This document shows, one piece after another, positions 5,026 to 61,198 of a DNA stretch of 64,000 nt (the first letter of the stretch is position 1; the number at the start of each line of letters is the position of its first letter). The notes beneath the pieces were generated by a model, which was not told the DNA's origin, searched no databases, and saw only the letters and a list, made by a program, of their open reading frames with translations. Origin of the DNA: Escherichia coli (GTDB lineage Bacteria > Pseudomonadota > Gammaproteobacteria > Enterobacterales > Enterobacteriaceae); the NCBI RefSeq assembly GCF_016026235.1, contig NZ_CP065613.1; one strand, 5' to 3'. A program made the translations under genes and the position numbers.

Positions 5026-8572
<3,547 letters not shown>

Positions 8573-8684
8573 ATAGCGCAATATTTCATCGTTGGTGCAA
8601 AAATGTAACGCACTGTGCACTGTCATAGTGCGTTTTCATTTTCAATCTTCTTAACTTCCTGCTCTCTTTCTCGTTTTTCATTTC

Positions 8685-8700
8685 TGGCACACCGCTTGCA
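8685..8700 (+). promoter_or_regulatory. sigma54 (RpoN) -24/-12 promoter TGGCAC-N5-TTGCA for glnK-amtB, with NtrC-type palindromes upstream (about 8590-8632)
   Basis: Exact TGGCAC N5 TTGCA at 8685-8700, about 50 nt upstream of glnK ATG; TGCAC-N7-GTGC palindrome at about 8616-8632. Confidence 0.75.
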
Positions 8701-8752
8701 ATACCTTCTTCGTGTAGCAGAACCATTACCGAATTCTGACCGGAGGGGATCT

Positions 8753-9091
8753 ATGAAGCTGGTGACCGTGATAATCAAACCATTCAAGCTGGAAGACGTT
8801 CGTGAAGCGTTATCTTCCATTGGTATTCAGGGCCTGACCGTCACCGAAGTGAAAGGTTTCGGGCGTCAGAAAGGGCATGCCGAGCTGTACCGGGGGGCGG
8901 AATACAGCGTCAACTTCCTGCCAAAAGTAAAAATTGATGTGGCGATTGCTGATGACCAACTCGATGAAGTGATCGATATCGTCAGTAAGGCGGCTTACAC
9001 CGGAAAAATTGGCGACGGCAAAATCTTCGTCGCTGAATTGCAACGCGTCATTCGTATTCGTACCGGCGAAGCCGACGAAGCGGCGCTGTAA
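8753..9091 (+). CDS. glnK: nitrogen regulatory protein PII-2 GlnK
   Basis: 112 aa PII protein MKLVTVIIKPFKLEDVREAL inside ORF 8615..9091. Confidence 0.95.
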   Translation: MKLVTVIIKPFKLEDVREALSSIGIQGLTVTEVKGFGRQKGHAELYRGAEYSVNFLPKVKIDVAIADDQLDEVIDIVSKAAYTGKIGDGKIFVAELQRVIRIRTGEADEAAL

Positions 9092-9274
9092 TCTCTGGCA
9101 CACAGCAACAGGAACGAAAAATGAAGATAGCGACGATAAAAACTGGGCTTGCTTCACTGGCGATGCTGCCGGGACTGGTAATGGCTGCACCTGCGGTGGC
9201 CGATAAAGCCGACAATGCGTTTATGATGATTTGTACTGCGCTGGTGCTGTTTATGACTATTCCGGGGATTGCCC

Positions 9275-10567
9275 CTGAGGGATCCCCAGAAAATTTAGTA
9301 AACCATTATCATATTGGTATACCGTTGCTGTAGAACTTTCAGCCCTGCGTCAAGTGACAGTGTGTTTAGTATGAGTGGAGAATGTCGAATCACATTCTCC
9401 GCCAGTTTTAATAACGAGATGACTCGCCTGTGCTTCACTGTATTTGCCTGATATTTATGATGTATCCCTTTGTTTTCCAGGCTGAAACCGCTTAACCACA
9501 TAATGATACTGGCTAATGTTGCGATCAGACTCAATACCGTGACCCGCCCGGATGAATGACTGGCACCAAACCGTAGTCCAAATCCCCAGCGAGGATTTTT
9601 TCATCCCTGAAATTTTGCTCAATTTGCATTCTACGGCTGTATAATTTCATTACCTGTTTTGGCGAGAACTCAGTACTGTTTGTGAAAATAAACCATGGTG
9701 ATTTCCCGGCAGTACGAGCTTTAGCCGTCACCGATGGTCTGGTTGCTCTTTCCTTCGAGCGTTTAAATCTACGACCTTTAGGCTTACTTTTATAAAGATA
9801 AAAATGCCCTTCATGTTGTGCATTTTTATCTCGACCCAGCAGGCCTTCACCTAAATAAATTGCTGTCGTTGATGCTTTTGTGCCTGAGTCCGACACCTTT
9901 TCCCAGCCATTACCAACATTGTAATAATGATTGCCCAGTACCCGGCAAATATAGGTCCAGCCACGGGAGCGGAGCTGTTGGAACCATCGCCCCTGAAAAC
10001 CGGCATCTGTAATAACAATGACATCAGTCCCGGGGGAAAAGCACTCAGCAAGCGATTCCAGAAAACGCTCATGTACATCTGCATTCGCTGTCTGTGATGA
10101 TGGAACGACACAACTCATCAACGGTAAAGAACGCCCGTCACATGCCAGGCTTGCCCGCAAAAGCTGAAAACGAGAGGCATGATAAGCACTCCAGTCAATG
10201 AGTATCACAACACGAGACATTCCCCGCGTAATCTTTTGGGTAATTCGCTGAAAAATGGTGGAAACCTCATTTTGCAAATGTCGATTCCCCAACAGTCGAT
10301 CCACCCGCTTTATTTTGTTTTTAACTGATGCCGTACCGGTTAAATGACGCCCGATACTGGTAAGTGTGAGGGAAGCGCCATTTATTACAGCATTAGTTGC
10401 GTCAATCAGTGATTTTTGACGGTAAAGATGCAAAGGGGCCAGTATGTTGTTAAGGAAATTTTGGCATAATGAACGTGCAGGCATAGTGGTGATCTCCTTG
10501 AAATTGTTAGCACAATCAATTAGATCACATCTCACTATGCCTGTCTTGTTTTCTGGGGATTCCTCAG
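9275..10567 (-). mobile_element. IS10-like insertion sequence (IS4 family), about 1.29 kb, imperfect terminal inverted repeats CTGAGGGATCCCC / CTGAGGAATCCCC, flanked by direct repeat (G)GGATTGCCC
   Basis: Terminal IRs read directly; flanking duplication at 9265-9274 and 10568-10577; internal transposase with IS4-family Y-R-E-K signature. Confidence 0.88.
9295..10484 (-). CDS. IS4-family (IS10-like) DDE transposase, apparently frameshifted (N-terminal frame 9531..10484, C-terminal frame 9295..about 9579)
   Basis: ORF track 9531..10649 and 9295..9534 both transposase-like, in different frames; YSRRMQIEQNFRDEK signature; AAGGAG SD upstream of ATG at 10484. Confidence 0.8.
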
Positions 10568-11728
10568 GGGATTGCCCTGTTTTACGGTGGGTTGATTCGC
10601 GGCAAAAACGTGCTGTCGATGCTGACGCAGGTGACGGTGACATTTGCACTGGTCTGTATTCTCTGGGTGGTTTACGGTTACTCGCTGGCGTTTGGTGAGG
10701 GCAACAACTTCTTCGGCAACATTAACTGGTTGATGCTGAAAAACATCGAACTGACGGCGGTGATGGGCAGCATTTATCAGTATATCCACGTAGCGTTTCA
10801 GGGATCGTTTGCCTGCATTACCGTAGGCTTGATAGTTGGGGCGCTGGCGGAACGAATCCGCTTCTCAGCTGTGTTGATTTTCGTGGTGGTATGGCTGACG
10901 CTCTCTTACATTCCAATTGCGCATATGGTCTGGGGCGGTGGTTTGCTGGCTTCTCACGGTGCGCTGGATTTCGCGGGTGGCACGGTGGTGCACATTAACG
11001 CCGCAATCGCCGGTCTGGTGGGCGCGTATCTGATAGGAAAACGCGTGGGCTTCGGTAAAGAGGCGTTTAAACCGCACAACCTGCCGATGGTCTTCACCGG
11101 GACTGCCATTCTCTATATCGGTTGGTTTGGCTTTAACGCCGGGTCAGCGGGCACGGCGAATGAAATCGCGGCACTGGCATTTGTGAATACTGTGGTCGCA
11201 ACGGCGGCGGCAATTCTTGGCTGGATCTTCGGTGAATGGGCGCTGCGTGGTAAGCCTTCACTGCTGGGGGCGTGTTCTGGCGCGATTGCCGGTCTGGTCG
11301 GCGTGACGCCAGCCTGTGGCTACATTGGTGTTGGCGGCGCGTTGATTATCGGCGTGGTAGCTGGTCTGGCGGGCTTGTGGGGCGTTACCATGCTCAAACG
11401 CTTGCTGCGGGTGGATGATCCCTGCGATGTCTTCGGTGTGCACGGCGTTTGTGGCATTGTCGGCTGTATCATGACCGGGATTTTTGCCGCCAGCTCGCTG
11501 GGCGGCGTGGGCTTCGCTGAAGGTGTGACGATGGGCCATCAGTTGCTGGTACAGCTGGAAAGCATTGCCATTACGATCGTCTGGTCCGGTGTGGTGGCAT
11601 TTATTGGCTACAAACTGGCGGATCTGACGGTTGGCCTGCGTGTGCCGGAAGAACAAGAGCGAGAAGGGCTGGACGTCAACAGTCACGGCGAGAATGCCTA
11701 TAACGCGTAACAAGCACTGCAAAAAACA

Positions 11729-11760
11729 GCCGGACGGTTTTCACCTCCGGCTATTTTTTT
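11729..11760 (+). terminator. Rho-independent terminator after amtB (hairpin GCCGGA...TCCGGC plus T-tract)
   Basis: GC hairpin followed by 8 T directly after amtB stop; also lies at the tesB 3' end on the opposite strand. Confidence 0.6.
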
Positions 11761-12619
11761 AATTGTGATTACGCATCACCCCTTCCTGAACGGTCGAGGC
11801 AACCAGTACGCCGTCATGGGTATAAAACTCACCGCGCACAAAGCCACGTGCGCTGGACGCCGAGGTGCTCTCCACGCTATACAGCAGCCATTCATTCAAA
11901 TTAAACGGGCGATGGAACCACATGGAATGGTCAATGGTGGCAATCTGAATCCCCGGTTCGAGAAAACCGATGCCGTGCGGCTGTAGAGCTACCGGCAGGA
12001 AGTTAAGATCAGAAGCGTAACCGAGCAGATACTGATGAACGCGCAGGTCATCCGGCACGCTACCATTTGCGCGGATCCACACCTGACGATGTGGTTCTGC
12101 GACGTGACCTTTCAGTGGGTTATGAAACTCCACCGGACGGACTTCCAGCGGACGATCGCAGATGAATTTATCTTTCAGCACTGGCGGCAGCAGGTGCGCC
12201 AGCGACTGGGCGATTTGCGTTTCCGAAGGCAGGCCATCAGGCGCTGGCGCGGACGGCATTGTTTTTTGATGTTCGAAACCCGCTTCTGGTGCCTGGAAAG
12301 AGGCCGTCATATAAAAAATCGGTTTGCCGTTTTGAATAGCAGCAACCCGGCGGGCGCTGAAGCTGTTACCGTCACGCAGCGTTTCGACATCATAAATAAT
12401 CGGTTTCTTACTATCGCCTGGGCGAAGAAAGTAGCTGTGAAACGAATGTACCAGCCGCTCTTCCGGGACGGTCTCTTTTGCAGCATACAAGGCCTGACCC
12501 ACGACCTGGCCGCCAAACACCTGGCGTAAACCTAAATCTTCACTCTGGCCGCGAAAGAGTCCTTCCTCAATTTTTTCCAGATTTAACAATGTCAGTAAAT
12601 TTTTTAGCGCCTGACTCAT
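11759..12619 (-). CDS. tesB: acyl-CoA thioesterase II
   Basis: 286 aa starting [20 protein letters not shown] inside ORF 11759..12703. Confidence 0.93.
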
Positions 12620-23993: not shown

Positions 23994-26900
23994 ATGACTA
24001 TGTTCCAGTATTACAAACGATCACGGCATTTTGTTTTTTCAGCATTTATTGCTTTTGTTTTTGTCTTGTTATGCCAGAACACGGCGTTTGCGCGGGCGTC
24101 ATCGAATGGTGATTTACCGACAAAAGCGGACCTGCAGGCGCAACTTGACTCACTAAATAAACAAAAAGATCTTTCTGCTCAGGACAAACTGGTGCAGCAG
24201 GATCTGACAGATACATTAGCCACCCTCGATAAAATCGATCGCGTAAAAGAAGAGACCGTTCAGCTACGGCAAAAAGTCGCTGAAGCGCCGGAAAAAATGC
24301 GCCAGGCGACCGCGGCGTTAACAGCACTTAGCGATGTCGATAACGACGAAGAAACGCGCAAAATTCTGAGCACGCTTTCGTTGCGCCAGCTGGAAACTCG
24401 CGTTGCCCAGGCGCTGGACGATTTGCAAAACGCACAAAACGATCTGGCGTCTTATAACAGCCAGCTGGTTTCGTTACAGACGCAGCCCGAACGCGTGCAA
24501 AATGCGATGTATAACGCTTCGCAGCAGCTGCAACAAATTCGCAGTCGTCTGGATGGGACTGATGTCGGCGAGACTGCCTTACGTCCCAGCCAGAAAGTGT
24601 TAATGCAGGCTCAGCAGGCGTTGCTGAATGCGGAGATTGACCAGCAACGTAAAAGCCTGGAAGGGAATACCGTCTTGCAGGATACCTTGCAAAAGCAACG
24701 TGATTACGTGACGGCGAACAGCGCCCGTCTGGAGCACCAGTTGCAGCTGTTGCAAGAAGCGGTAAACAGCAAGCGCCTGACTTTAACCGAAAAAACGGCG
24801 CAGGAAGCCGTCTCCCCGGATGAAGCCGCGCGTATTCAGGCTAATCCGCTGGTGAAGCAGGAACTGGAAATTAACCAGCAGTTGAGTCAGCGTCTGATTA
24901 CCGCGACTGAAAACGGTAATCAGTTGATGCAGCAAAACATTAAAGTCAAAAACTGGCTGGAGCGGGCGCTGCAATCGGAACGCAATATTAAAGAGCAGAT
25001 TGCCGTCTTGAAGGGCAGCCTGCTGTTATCTCGTATCCTTTACCAGCAACAACAAACGCTGCCCTCGGCGGATGAACTGGAAAACATGACCAACCGCATC
25101 GCGGATTTGCGTCTCGAACAGTTTGAAGTTAACCAGCAGCGTGATGCACTCTTCCAGAGCGATGCGTTCGTCAACAAACTGGAAGAAGGTCACACCAACG
25201 AAGTCAACAGCGAAGTTCACGATGCGTTATTGCAAGTGGTTGATATGCGTCGCAAATTGCTGGATCAACTCAACAAACAGTTGGGTAACCAGCTGATGAT
25301 GGCCATTAACCTGCAAATCAACCAGCAGCAGTTAATGAGCGTATCGAAAAACCTGAAATCCATCCTGACTCAGCAAATCTTTTGGGTGAACAGTAACCGT
25401 CCAATGGACTGGGACTGGATCAAAGCGTTCCCGCAAAGCCTGAAAGATGAATTTAAGTCGATGAAAATTACGGTGAACTGGGAAAAAGCCTGGCCCGCCG
25501 TTTTTATCGCTTTCCTCGCCGGTTTGCCGCTGCTGTTGATTGCCGGGCTGATCCACTGGCGTCTGGGCTGGCTGAAAGCGTATCAACAGAAACTGGCTTC
25601 CGCTGTGGGTTCCCTGCGTAACGACAGTCAGCTCAACACACCAAAAGCGATCCTTATCGACCTGATCCGTGCGCTGCCGGTGTGCCTGATTATTCTCGCG
25701 GTTGGCCTGATTCTGTTGACCATGCAGCTCAACATCAGCGAACTGCTATGGTCGTTCAGTAAAAAACTGGCGATTTTCTGGCTGGTGTTTGGCCTGTGCT
25801 GGAAGGTACTGGAGAAAAATGGCGTTGCCGTGCGTCACTTCGGCATGCCGGAGCAGCAGACCAGCCACTGGCGTCGGCAAATTGTCCGCATCAGTCTCGC
25901 GTTGCTGCCTATCCATTTCTGGTCTGTGGTGGCAGAACTTTCCCCGCTGCATCTGATGGATGATGTGCTGGGGCAGGCGATGATTTTCTTCAACCTGCTG
26001 CTGATTGCCTTCCTGGTATGGCCAATGTGCCGCGAAAGCTGGCGTGATAAAGAGTCGCACACCATGCGACTGGTCACCATTACCGTGCTGTCGATTATCC
26101 CGATTGCATTGATGGTGCTGACTGCCACGGGTTATTTCTACACCACGCTGCGCCTCTCCGGGCGTTGGATTGAAACCGTTTATCTGGTGATCATCTGGAA
26201 CTTGCTCTACCAGACGGTATTGCGCGGCTTAAGCGTAGCGGCGCGGCGTATCGCCTGGCGTCGTGCGCTGGCGCGTCGGCAGAATCTGGTGAAAGAGGGC
26301 GCAGAAGGTGCCGAACCGCCGGAAGAACCCACCATTGCACTGGAACAGGTTAACCAGCAGACGCTGCGTATTACCATGTTGCTGATGTTTGCGCTGTTCG
26401 GTGTCATGTTCTGGGCAATTTGGTCCGATTTGATCACCGTGTTCAGCTATCTCGACAGCATTACGCTGTGGCATTACAACGGTACTGAAGCTGGTGCTGC
26501 GGTGGTGAAAAACGTCACCATGGGTAGTCTGTTGTTTGCGATTATCGCCTCAATGGTGGCCTGGGCGTTGATTCGCAACCTGCCTGGTTTGCTGGAAGTG
26601 CTGGTGCTCTCGCGACTGAATATGCGCTAGGGCGCGTCGTATGCCATTACTACCATCCTTAACTACATCATTATTGCTGTTGGTGCGATGACGGTGTTCG
26701 GATCGCTGGGCGTCTCTTGGGATAAACTCCAGTGGCTGGCAGCAGCATTATCCGTAGGTCTTGGTTTTGGTTTACAAGAAATTTTCGGTAACTTCGTCTC
26801 CGGTTTGATCATTCTATTCGAACGTCCGGTGCGTATTGGCGATACGGTAACCATTGGTAGCTTCTCGGGGACGGTAAGTAAGATCCGTATTCGTGCGACA

Positions 26901-27356
26901 ACGATTACCGATTTCGATCGCAAAGAAGTGATCATCCCGAACAAAGCGTTTGTTACCGAGCGTCTGATCAATTGGTCGTTGACTGACACTACTACGCGTC
27001 TGGTGATCCGTCTCGGCGTGGCCTATGGCTCCGATCTGGAAAAAGTGCGTAAAGTGTTACTGAAGGCGGCGACTGAGCACCCAAGGGTGATGCACGAACC
27101 AATGCCGGAAGTCTTCTTTACGGCGTTTGGTGCCAGCACGTTGGATCATGAGCTGCGTCTGTATGTGCGTGAACTGCGTGACCGTAGCCGTACTGTCGAT
27201 GAGCTAAACCGTACTATCGATCAGCTGTGCCGTGAAAACGACATCAACATTGCCTTTAACCAGCTTGAAGTGCATTTGCACAACGAGAAGGGCGATGAAG
27301 TGACGGAAGTCAAACGCGACTACAAAGGCGACGATCCGACGCCAGCGGTAGGGTAA
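23994..27356 (+). pseudogene. mscK: mechanosensitive channel MscK (KefA) with in-frame TAG stop at 26628-26630 (codon 879); C-terminal MscS-like domain continues in the same frame to 27356
   Basis: ORF track 23994..26630 (878 aa) and 26688..27356 (222 aa) are in the same frame, separated only by the TAG; together they give about 1120 aa. Confidence 0.8.
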
Positions 27357-27414: not shown

Positions 27415-27520
27415 ATGCCGGATGCGGCGTGACTGCCTTATCCGGCCTACGAAACCGCAAAAATTCAATATATTGCAGGAGCGGTGTAGGCCTGATAAGC
27501 GTAGCGCATCAGGCAGTTTT
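27415..27520. repeat. REP (palindromic unit) elements downstream of mscK
   Basis: GCCGGATGCGGCGTGA / GCCTGATAAGCGTAGCGCATCAGGC type imperfect palindromes. Confidence 0.7.
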
Positions 27521-38900: not shown

Positions 38901-38985
38901 CGTAGGCCAGCTAAGGCGTTCACGCCGCATCTGGCATTTTGCTCTCAATGCCTGATGCGACGCTGGCGCGTCTTATCAGGCCTAC
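38901..38985. repeat. REP elements downstream of gsk
   Basis: GCCTGATGCGACGCTGGCGCGTCTTATCAGGCCTAC type palindromic units. Confidence 0.7.
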
Positions 38986-40693: not shown

Positions 40694-40931
40694 TCCGTCT
40701 CCTTTTCCTGGTGGTTATTGTCCATTTTTGGCCGGGGAAACCAAAATTACAGGTAATAGTTTATGACAATTTCATTGATGATGTTCATGAATAATTATTG
40801 AATTTTGCAGAAAAATGGAATTAGCTGCAAAAAAAAGCACGGATCGGAAAACAGAAGGCGGTTTAACAGAGGAAAGGCTTATGGCGACTGTAAAACGATG
40901 CAGCCAAAGTTTGCCTTTGGCTGCAATGAAA

Positions 40932-46015: not shown

Positions 46016-46037
46016 GGCCAAAACATCGCTTCATCTC

Positions 46038-46275
<238 letters not shown>

Positions 46276-60286: not shown

Positions 60287-60302
60287 TGACTGGTGTTAGA
60301 TT

Positions 60303-60602
<300 letters not shown>

Positions 60603-60703
60603 TGAACAGTGTGCATTTTGGCAATAAATCTGAAACCAACTGTCATGTCGGTTTTTTAAAGGCCGAAGGTGGTAAACCTTCGGCCTTAGCTACGTTTCCT
60701 CAG

Positions 60704-60787
60704 TTATTCAATAAACTGACGGATCAGTTCCAGCAGCGCGATTAGCGCCTTAAGCACGATGAGAACTTTATCGAGAAAAGTTTTCAT
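60704..60787 (-). CDS. candidate type I toxin: 27 aa hydrophobic/amphipathic peptide MKTFLDKVLIVLKALIALLELIRQFIE (DinQ/TisB-like)
   Basis: Hand-translated ORF with strong SD AAGGGAG 6 nt upstream of ATG, SD embedded in perfect palindrome CTCCCTTAAGGGAG; central ALIALLELIR segment resembles DinQ as I recall it; not in the ORF track (under 60 aa). Confidence 0.45.
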   Translation of the reverse strand: MKTFLDKVLIVLKALIALLELIRQFIE

Positions 60788-61046
60788 CCGTTGCTCCCTT
60801 AAGGGAGAAAGACAATCACAGCTTACCCTTACGTTGCCTGTAACTATGATTTTCTTCATGTGCTAGATGAGGACTGCCTCTCTCCAAATTAGAGCACCAG
60901 AATCAGCACCACCTGTATCCTGACCAGGACTTAAAAGTACTTTTCCGCACTGCGGTAATCCCTTGAGGCAGTATCACTACTAGCGTCGGGATTGTATCGC
61001 CAACATAGCTGTTTGAATATGTAGGCATCCTGACTTATAATTCACT

Positions 61047-61137
61047 TGCTAGATGAGGACTGTTTCATTTCTGCCCGGAACCACCAAGTCTTGGGCGGAA
61101 AAAATAAAAAAACCGACTGTCATGTCGGTTTTTTTAT
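61047..61137 (+). ncRNA. candidate antitoxin sRNA (about 90 nt), divergent from the toxin ORF; its 5' end carries a 16 nt box identical to 60861-60876 and hence complementary to the minus-strand toxin leader
   Basis: Near-consensus sigma70 promoter TTGAAT (61013-18), 17 nt spacer, TATAAT (61036-41); transcript would start about 61044-61048 and end at hairpin AACCGAC-TGTCAT-GTCGGTT plus 7 T (61111-61137). Confidence 0.45.
61111..61137. terminator. bidirectional Rho-independent terminator (A-tract, hairpin, T-tract) shared by selU (minus) and the candidate sRNA (plus)
   Basis: AAAAAAACCGAC TGTCAT GTCGGTTTTTTT read directly. Confidence 0.75.
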
Positions 61138-61198
61138 ATCTGTATTCTGGTGCAACCATTCTGTTCTCACGACAATCGCCGTTTCAGAATACCGCCCA

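What the first reader, a model, noticed from the sequence alone, without database searches (positions are those of the whole stretch)
9265..10577. IS10-like element inserted in amtB with a 9-10 bp target duplication
amtB is split after codon 51 by a 1293 bp element with IS10-type termini (CTGAGGGATCCCC...GGGGATTCCTCAG) and a direct repeat GGGATTGCCC on both flanks. Excising element plus one repeat restores a 428 aa AmtB. This is a simple, recent insertion, not an ancient rearrangement. The element is oriented opposite to amtB.
Basis: seen in the sequence. Interest (0 to 1): 0.7.

Follow-up and report, generated by a model that had tools for sequence, protein, structure and literature searches.

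The report
ISEc60 insertion disrupting ammonium transporter amtB
A catalogued 1.3-kb jumping gene (ISEc60, a distant relative of IS10) has landed in the ammonium-transporter gene amtB of an Escherichia coli-type chromosome and split it; this is an ordinary, well-understood gene knockout.

Summary
Window 9275-10567 is a 1293-bp insertion sequence. Its 19-bp terminal inverted repeats match at 18 of 19 positions. It is flanked by an exact 10-bp direct repeat, GGGATTGCCC. Removing the element and one repeat restores a 428-aa AmtB.

The element is not IS10. It is ISEc60 (IS4 family), 99.9% identical to annotated copies; its transposase is 36% identical to the IS10 transposase.

The insertion is real and fairly recent:
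- The nearest complete genome, FDAARGOS_943 (99.93-99.95% identical), has an intact amtB.
- At least 10 other NCBI contigs carry the same junction, so this is a clone marker and not an assembly artefact.
- A target-site model built from 10 other ISEc60 insertions (consensus GGGG-N4-CCCC) ranks the amtB site 2nd of 62,678 positions.

This copy lacks one base in an A7 run, which truncates the transposase from 396 to 317 aa. Whether that is a mutation or a sequencing error is unresolved.

Nothing here is novel in kind, and interest is low.

The parts
8753..9091 (+). glnK (PII protein), the intact upstream gene of the glnK-amtB operon
   Evidence: ORF and sequence. Annotated glnK at the same place in FDAARGOS_943. 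PF00543 on the same gene in L022.
9121..9274 (+). amtB 5' fragment: codons 1-51 plus 1 nt. It reads on into the IS as a 70-aa hybrid ORF, 9121-9333.
   Evidence: NCBIfam AmtB equivalog NF007947 matches residues 1-51. Codon bookkeeping.
9265..9274 (.). Left copy of the 10-bp target-site duplication, GGGATTGCCC
   Evidence: The empty site in FDAARGOS_943 carries one copy.
9275..10567 (-). ISEc60 insertion sequence (IS4 family, IS10-like subgroup), 1293 bp; the canonical element is 1294 bp
   Evidence: 99.9% identity over its full length to elements annotated 'IS4-like element ISEc60'. The only difference from the L002 copy is one missing base.
9275..9293 (+). Terminal inverted repeat at the transposase-distal ('inside-like') end, CTGAGGGATCCCCAGAAAA; contains a GATC site
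   Evidence: Compare the IS10 inside end, CTGAGAGATCCCC.
9295..10484 (-). Transposase gene, frameshifted. Residues 1-296 are native, then 21 aberrant residues and a stop at 9531-9533. The remainder of the gene is out of frame.
   Evidence: Translations. NCBIfam NF033591 IS4 transposase. Pfam DDE_Tnp_1 on the intact homologue.
9596..9601 (.). T6 run (A6 on the transposase strand) where all other full-length copies examined have 7 bases; this is the site of the -1 frameshift, directly after K296 of the Y-R-E-K motif
10477..10545 (.). Long hairpin covering the transposase ribosome-binding site and start codon. It resembles the IS10 fold-back / RNA-OUT stem-loop. Its function is inferred.
   Evidence: Fold of -43.8 kcal/mol, z = -4.8. 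The stem is kept in ISEc60 variants, ISSfl1 and a Salmonella relative, with 2 compensatory pairs. No Rfam hit.
10549..10567 (-). Terminal inverted repeat at the transposase-proximal ('outside-like') end, CTGAGGAATCCCCAGAAAA
   Evidence: Compare the IS10 outside end, CTGATGAATCCCC.
10568..10577 (.). Right copy of the 10-bp target-site duplication, GGGATTGCCC
10568..11710 (+). amtB 3' fragment: from the duplicated bases through codon 428 and the stop. It lacks a promoter, a start codon and the signal peptide.
   Evidence: PF00909 Ammonium_transp on the equivalent fragment in L022.

Best explanation
An ISEc60 element transposed into a preferred target inside amtB. ISEc60 is a DDE-transposase insertion sequence of the IS4 family, in the IS10-like subgroup.

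The transposase joined the two IS ends to target strands cut 10 bp apart. Repair of the gaps produced the GGGATTGCCC duplication. The insertion separates the first 51 codons (signal peptide and the start of helix 1) from the remaining 377 codons. AmtB is therefore inactivated, while the upstream glnK stays intact.

The event happened in the ancestor of a small clone, after it split from the FDAARGOS_943 lineage.

The copy in this assembly also lacks one A in an A7 run. That truncates the transposase just after its catalytic Y-R-E-K motif and removes the C-terminal 100 residues. If the deletion is real, this copy cannot move by itself, although its ends are intact.

Shown: element identity, boundaries, duplication, empty site in a close relative, shared junction in other assemblies, target-site fit, and the frameshift in the sequence. 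Inferred: the cut-and-paste chemistry (by homology with IS10 and IS50), loss of AmtB function, and loss of transposase activity.
For: Identity of the element:
- 1293/1294 identity to annotated ISEc60 copies.
- The transposase matches NCBIfam IS4 model NF033591 at 360 bits against a cut-off of 152, and Pfam DDE_Tnp_1.
- D97, D160, E289 and Y282-R285-E289-K296 align with IS10 D97, D161, E292 and its Y-R-E-K motif.

Insertion anatomy:
- Exact 10-bp duplication and an 18/19 inverted repeat.
- Excision restores a 428-aa AmtB that differs by 1 aa from the annotated protein.

Real, and not an artefact:
- FDAARGOS_943 is 99.93-99.95% identical over 50 kb and has an intact amtB with a single copy of the target.
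- The junction ORF is found on at least 10 NCBI contigs.
- One of them (UGFA01000002.1) matches window 6121-12332 with 0 mismatches and 1 gap.

Target choice:
- 12 of 17 other copies have exact 10-bp duplications.
- A weight matrix from 10 independent sites, excluding amtB, ranks the amtB site 2nd of 62,678 positions.

Simple insertion:
- There is no second copy of the ends anywhere in the 64-kb window.
Against: No sequencing reads were available, so neither the junctions nor the 1-bp deletion could be verified at read level in this particular assembly.

The same locus in two other assemblies (L022 and L023) has the intact A7 run. Multicopy repeats are where homopolymer errors tend to persist, so the frameshift may be technical.

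Loss of AmtB function is inferred from the gene structure and was not measured.
Confidence: 0.93

Rival explanations
1. The junctions are an assembly artefact: an IS copy was wrongly placed in amtB when repeats were resolved.
For: IS elements are multicopy. A close relative carries about 38 ISEc60 places. No reads could be inspected.
Against: A misassembly would not create an exact 10-bp duplication of the length and consensus typical of this IS. At least 10 contigs from other NCBI assemblies carry the same junction ORF. These include short-read drafts that break inside the IS, and a 4.56-Mb contig that spans it.
Confidence: 0.02
2. The element is IS10 itself (or a Tn10 remnant) rather than a distinct IS.
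For: The first 13 bp of each end are nearly those of IS10: CTGAGGAATCCCC against CTGATGAATCCCC, and CTGAGGGATCCCC against CTGAGAGATCCCC. The gene layout is the same.
Against: The transposase is only 36% identical to the IS10/ISVsa5 transposase. The length is 1294 bp, not 1329 bp (the IS10 length is from my own knowledge). The duplication is 10 bp against 9 bp in the IS10 copy examined. Rfam RNA-OUT is not detected. NCBI annotation names identical copies ISEc60.
Confidence: 0.01
3. The 1-bp deletion in the transposase is a real mutation, and this A6 allele is a non-autonomous derivative that other copies mobilise in trans.
For: An element identical over all 1293 bp, including the A6 run, sits at a different locus in GCA_900449095.1 and has its own perfect 10-bp duplication, AGGATCGCCC. 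Outside the IS, the window differs from FDAARGOS_943 by only one indel in 50 kb, so the assembly is not riddled with indel errors.
Against: The same amtB insertion in L022 and L023 has A7. At this locus the deletion therefore arose after insertion, or is an error. No A6 copy exists among 98 places in 29 records (20 genomes) of complete E. coli genomes. The run is the longest homopolymer in the element, so it is the likeliest site both for recurrent slippage and for recurrent sequencing error. IS10-type transposases act preferentially in cis (established knowledge).
Confidence: 0.2
4. The 1-bp deletion is a sequencing or polishing error, and the copy in amtB is an intact, active ISEc60.
For: Two other assemblies of the same insertion have A7 and are otherwise identical to the window. 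The site is the longest homopolymer in a multicopy repeat.
Against: The window shows only one other homopolymer-length difference in 50 kb against its nearest relative. All other genes examined in the window keep their expected lengths.
Confidence: 0.45

Closest known systems
ISEc60 (IS4 family), as annotated by NCBI in EIEC O96:H19 strain CFSAN029787, in FDAARGOS_943, and on E. albertii and S. dysenteriae plasmids
   Same: 1293 of 1294 positions are identical. The inverted repeats, gene layout and 10-bp duplication are the same, and so is the target consensus.
   Different: One base is missing from the A7 run, so the 396-aa transposase (WP_001111632.1) is truncated to 317 aa. The amtB location is not seen in any complete RefSeq E. 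coli genome.
IS10 / ISVsa5 (the IS of Tn10), the prototype of the IS10 subgroup of the IS4 family
   Same: - Terminal sequence CTGA..(G/A)ATCCCC. The GATC-containing version is at the transposase-distal end and the GAATCCCC version at the proximal end.
- A single DDE transposase with the Y-R-E-K motif.
- A GATC overlapping a TGnTC(T/A)AAT -10-like motif upstream of the transposase gene.
- An inverted repeat that can sequester the start codon.
- A symmetric target preference.
   Different: - 36% amino-acid identity.
- 1294 bp against 1329 bp (the IS10 length is from my own knowledge).
- 10-bp duplication against 9 bp.
- Target consensus GGGG-N4-CCCC against IS10's NGCTNAGCN (the latter from established knowledge).
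- No match to Rfam RNA-OUT.
ISSfl1 (Shigella flexneri virulence plasmid)
   Same: It is the closest separately named relative found, with 51.6% transposase identity. It shares the CTGAGGAATCCCCAG end and the conserved leader hairpin.
   Different: It is a different element at the DNA level. Its duplication length and target were not examined here.

Membership tests
ISEc60 | Near-identity of the DNA over the full length to the named element | tested here: met
   100% coverage and 99.9% identity to many copies annotated 'IS4-like element ISEc60 family transposase'. A single 1-bp gap against L002.
ISEc60 | Intact 396-aa transposase | tested here: not met
   A -1 frameshift after K296 gives a 317-aa product. 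The copy is therefore a defective or mis-sequenced member.
IS4 family | DDE transposase with the DDE_Tnp_1 domain and the Y-(2)-R-(3)-E-(6)-K motif | tested here: met
   NF033591 at 360.5 bits against a cut-off of 152. PF01609 with E = 2.8e-20. D97, D160, E289 and Y282, R285, E289, K296 align with the IS10 residues.
IS4 family | Short terminal inverted repeats and a target-site duplication | tested here: met
   18/19 inverted repeat and a 10-bp direct repeat.
IS10 (as the same element) | High sequence identity to the IS10 transposase and DNA | tested here: not met
   36% amino-acid identity over 375 residues. No IS10 record appears among the megablast hits.
IS10 (as the same element) | 9-bp target duplication | tested here: not met
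   10 bp here and in 12 of 17 other copies. L025, whose duplication starts with A, fixes the boundary. The IS10/ISVsa5 copy examined has 9 bp.
IS10-like subgroup | Termini of the form CTGA..ATCCCC | tested here: met
   Direct comparison with ISVsa5/IS10 and an IS10A-family element taken from database records.
IS10-like subgroup | Antisense RNA-OUT control of transposase translation | tested here: inconclusive
   No Rfam match at E <= 1. A strong hairpin does cover the ribosome-binding site and ATG (z = -4.8), with 2 compensatory pairs among 5 relatives. I read an extended -10-like TGgCATAAT at 10462-10470 from the sequence; the consensus promoter scan did not call it. No expression data.
IS10-like subgroup | Dam (GATC) sites in the distal end and at the transposase promoter | tested here: met
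   GATC at 9281 lies inside the distal repeat. GATC at 10523 lies in the conserved TGATCTAAT motif upstream of the transposase gene. Only the sequence feature was tested; methylation control cannot be tested with these tools.
AmtB ammonium transporter (the interrupted gene) | Full-length match to E. coli AmtB after removal of the element and one repeat | tested here: met
   428 aa with 1 substitution against WP_197940074.1, which is annotated AmtB. The N-terminal fragment hits NF007947 at positions 1-51.

The most novel reading that the evidence does not exclude
ISEc60 has an unusually strict, palindromic target preference, about 5'-G|GGGAT.ATCCC|C-3' with a 10-bp stagger. This target resembles the GGGGAT motif in the element's own terminal repeats.

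Two things would follow. Each insertion regenerates a good target next to itself, which would explain the tandem copies separated by exactly 10 bp. Insertion sites in a genome would also be predictable.

In addition, the A6 frameshift allele may be a non-autonomous derivative that spreads in trans. As far as the searchable literature shows, neither property has been described for this element; only two papers mention it. ISfinder could not be consulted and may already record the duplication length and target.
Probability: 0.3. Interest if true: 0.3.

Novelty: already known. Interest (0 to 1): 0.13.

Why it matters
It matters mainly for annotation. amtB should be called a pseudogene split by ISEc60, the element should not be labelled IS10, and the transposase should be flagged as frameshifted.

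Biologically, the strain should have lost high-affinity ammonium uptake and the membrane docking site for GlnK, while keeping GlnK itself. This is an inference. Together with the mscK nonsense mutation nearby, it fits gene decay in a clone whose closest complete-genome relative carries about 38 ISEc60 places.

The shared junction is a convenient clone marker. The target-site rule is a small, testable by-product.

Tried and rejected
- Rfam scan of 8500-11900 at E <= 1. There was no RNA-OUT or other IS-related RNA. The only hits are weak chance matches to the amtB/tesB terminator.
- Consensus promoter scan of the IS. It gave nothing convincing at the expected pIN/pOUT positions. The extended -10-like motifs I cite were read by eye and are leads only.
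- Exact search for the left junction in one genome per species (GTDB representatives): 0 hits.
- Junction searches in 5,426 complete E. coli genomes: 0 hits. The junction was found only through an exact-protein look-up of the hybrid ORF.
- Literature. 'ISEc60' appears in 2 papers, in passing. Nothing useful came up for amtB + Shigella + pseudogene. The assembly accessions gave nothing, so the organism names of the assemblies sharing the junction remain unknown to me.
- Composite transposon or larger mobile unit: rejected, because there is no second copy of the ends in the window.
- A 9-bp duplication with an asymmetric IS end (CTCAGG): rejected. L025's duplication starts with A, and variant last bases (T, A) are duplicated in other copies.
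- A 6-bp duplication with longer IS ends: rejected for the same reasons.

Full report
**1. The observation**

The window reads ...ATTCCGGGGATTGCCC|CTGAGGGATCCCCAGAAAA... at 9274/9275 and ...TTTTCTGGGGATTCCTCAG|GGGATTGCCCTGTTT... at 10567/10568.

- The two ends form an 18/19 inverted repeat. The 19-mer pattern occurs only at these two places in 64 kb, against 0 expected.
- The flanking decamer GGGATTGCCC is repeated exactly.
- Joining 9121-9274 to 10578-11710 gives a 428-codon frame.
- The break lies one nucleotide into codon 52.
- The element's long ORF is on the minus strand.

**2. What the element is**

Megablast against 5,426 complete E. coli genomes gives full-length hits at 99.9% identity. 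All are annotated 'IS4-like element ISEc60 family transposase' and all are 1294 bp long. The same holds on plasmids of E. coli, E. albertii and Shigella dysenteriae.

The intact transposase (WP_001111632.1, 396 aa):
- matches NCBIfam IS4 model NF033591 at 360 bits against a cut-off of 152;
- matches Pfam DDE_Tnp_1;
- is 51.6% identical to the ISSfl1 transposase and 36% identical to the IS10/ISVsa5 transposase.

I took a real ISVsa5/IS10 copy from a plasmid record for comparison. Its ends are CTGATGAATCCCC (transposase-proximal) and CTGAGAGATCCCC (distal), and it has a 9-bp duplication. ISEc60 has CTGAGGAATCCCC (proximal) and CTGAGGGATCCCC (distal). 'IS10-type termini' is therefore accurate, but the element is a distinct IS.

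In the alignment with IS10, ISEc60 D97, D160 and E289, and the Y282-R285-E289-K296 motif, fall on the IS10 catalytic residues.

**3. The duplication and the target**

I retrieved 16 further copies with their flanks and aligned both junctions.

| Duplication | Copies (of 17, including the window) |
|---|---|
| Exact 10 bp | 12 |
| 11 bp | 2 (same plasmid site; one is in an assembly with obvious indel errors) |
| None | 3 (one differs by a single base, one has different flanks, one is a tandem pair) |

The first two duplicated bases are G in all of these copies, so the right-hand boundary is formally ambiguous. A further copy, L025, resolves it: its duplication is AGGATCGCCC, with the A present on both sides. 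The element therefore ends exactly at CTCAG and the stagger is 10 bp.

The reconstructed empty sites give a symmetric consensus, nnnnGGGGnnnnCCCCnnnn. The mscL site, GGGATATCCC, is a perfect palindrome.

A log-odds matrix trained on 10 independent sites, excluding amtB, scores the amtB site 13.7 bits. That ranks it 2nd of 62,678 positions in the window with the IS removed. This is independent support that a genuine ISEc60 transposition event chose this site.

**4. Is it real, and how old?**

- Nearest complete genome. FDAARGOS_943 is 99.93-99.95% identical over 50 kb: 32 substitutions, one 1-bp indel and one 101-bp repeat-unit difference. It has an intact, annotated amtB with a single copy of the decamer.
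- Complete E. coli genomes. None carries either junction.
- Other assemblies. An exact look-up of the 70-aa hybrid ORF (AmtB residues 1-51 plus 19 IS-encoded residues) finds it on at least 10 NCBI contigs.
  - One is a 4.56-Mb contig (GCA_900449985.1) that matches window 6121-12332 with no mismatch and a single gap.
  - The short-read drafts break inside the IS, as expected for a repeat.

The insertion is thus a shared marker of a small clone. It is younger than the split from FDAARGOS_943, and it is not an artefact of one assembly. 'Recent' is right on an evolutionary scale. 'Private to this isolate' would be wrong.

**5. The frameshift**

The only difference from the canonical element is the loss of one base in the run at 9596-9601, T6 on the + strand where other copies have T7. 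The transposase reads normally to K296, the last residue of the Y-R-E-K motif. It then shifts frame and stops after 21 more residues. The C-terminal 100 residues are lost. By analogy with the IS10 and Tn5 transposases, this should abolish activity; that is an inference.

Whether the deletion is biological is open.

For a technical error:
- The same insertion in L022 and L023 has the intact run.
- This is the longest homopolymer in a multicopy repeat.
- None of 98 places in complete E. coli genomes has the short run.

For a real allele:
- The window otherwise shows one indel in 50 kb against its relative.
- An element identical over all 1293 bp, short run included, sits at another locus in GCA_900449095.1 with its own perfect duplication.

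I put a real deletion at this locus at roughly even odds.

**6. How it works**

By homology with IS10 and IS50, the transposase excises the element by hairpin-mediated double-strand cleavage and joins the 3' ends to target strands. Here the cuts are 10 bp apart. Gap repair then gives the duplication. This is inferred from family membership and from the observed duplication.

Consequences:
- amtB is split. The 5' piece encodes the signal peptide, part of helix 1 and a 19-residue tail.
- The 3' piece has no promoter or start codon of its own. Any outward transcription from the IS would at best yield a protein lacking helix 1.
- glnK upstream is untouched, and tesB is convergent, so no polar effect is expected beyond amtB.

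Within the IS, the leader upstream of the transposase gene can form a long hairpin at 10477-10545 that buries the ribosome-binding site and the ATG (z = -4.8). The stem is kept in two diverged ISEc60 variants, in ISSfl1 and in a Salmonella relative, with two compensatory pairs next to the start codon. IS10 has an analogous inverted repeat around its own ATG.

The motif TGATCTAAT, which contains a Dam site, is conserved upstream of the gene; IS10 has TGATCAAAT there. On the opposite strand a TGgCATAAT lies just before the hairpin (read). These features suggest IS10-style control by fold-back inhibition, antisense RNA and Dam methylation. However, Rfam's RNA-OUT model does not match and the consensus promoter scan did not call these sites. 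I mark this part as inferred.

**7. Comparison, novelty and verdict**

The element is a catalogued IS. The mechanism is textbook, and the gene hit is a well-known one. The particular insertion is present in public assemblies, though I found no paper that mentions it. I rate it 'already known' in kind, with low interest.

The only mildly new by-products are the 10-bp stagger, the GGGG-N4-CCCC target rule for ISEc60, and the tandem copies. ISfinder may already record these.

Noticed in passing
window 23994-27356 (stop at 26628-26630): mscK (the K+-dependent mechanosensitive channel) carries a nonsense mutation, CAG to TAG at codon 879. This splits the 1120-codon gene into ORFs of 878 and 222 aa. 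FDAARGOS_943 has the intact gene. The truncated 878-aa product is found on at least 13 draft contigs, so this is a second clone-specific pseudogene.
   Followed up: partly
L005 (NZ_CP011417.1 65518-67011) and L013 (NZ_CM177021.1 1365840-1368801): ISEc60 occurs as head-to-tail tandem pairs separated by exactly 10 bp (GGTAAATCCC), on an EIEC pINV-type plasmid and in a chromosome. This is what a second insertion into the target copy regenerated by the first would produce. In L013 the outer flank differs, which suggests that the pair moved or recombined.
   Followed up: partly
L006, L007, L008, L010 and L005 (plasmid site ...GGCAGGAAAAAGGCGGGGATTTTCCCCGCC...): The same near-palindromic plasmid site is occupied by ISEc60 in both orientations, and by two sequence variants of the IS, in different plasmids. 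The duplications there are 10 or 11 bp. It looks like an insertion hot spot.
   Followed up: partly
window 9260-9274 compared with L002 1601-1615 (tssG of CFSAN029787): The amtB and tssG insertion sites share 14 of 15 flanking bases (TTCCGGGGATTGCCC against TTCCGGGGATCGCCC). This is why BLAST matches of other copies run past the IS end into the flank.
   Followed up: yes
window 46037-46274: An array of 101-bp REP/BIME-type units has one more unit than in FDAARGOS_943. Related units lie at 38901, 60366 and 60466, and an inverted one at 27416.
   Followed up: no
window 40829-40836: An intergenic A8 run between ybaL and fsr is one base longer than in FDAARGOS_943. It is the only indel outside the IS in 50 kb of comparison.
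   Followed up: no
window 60287-61198: Only about 0.9 kb of repeat-rich DNA lies between ybbP and the 364-aa ORF that I take to be selU. From memory, K-12 has the rhsD cluster there. A 25-nt sequence recurs 477 bp apart, at 60633 and 61110. The gene names beyond 51 kb rest on ORF sizes and my knowledge of K-12 gene order; they were not tested.
   Followed up: no
window 11720-11806 (minus strand): A sub-threshold Rfam hit to 'Thr_leader' (28.8 bits against a gathering score of 55). It is simply the GC-rich hairpin and T-run terminator between the convergent genes amtB and tesB, so it is a chance match.
   Followed up: yes
L019 / NZ_CP065615.1 (FDAARGOS_943): The nearest complete genome carries about 38 ISEc60 places, against a median of 1 among genomes that have any. 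This points to an expansion of this IS in the lineage to which the window belongs.
   Followed up: no
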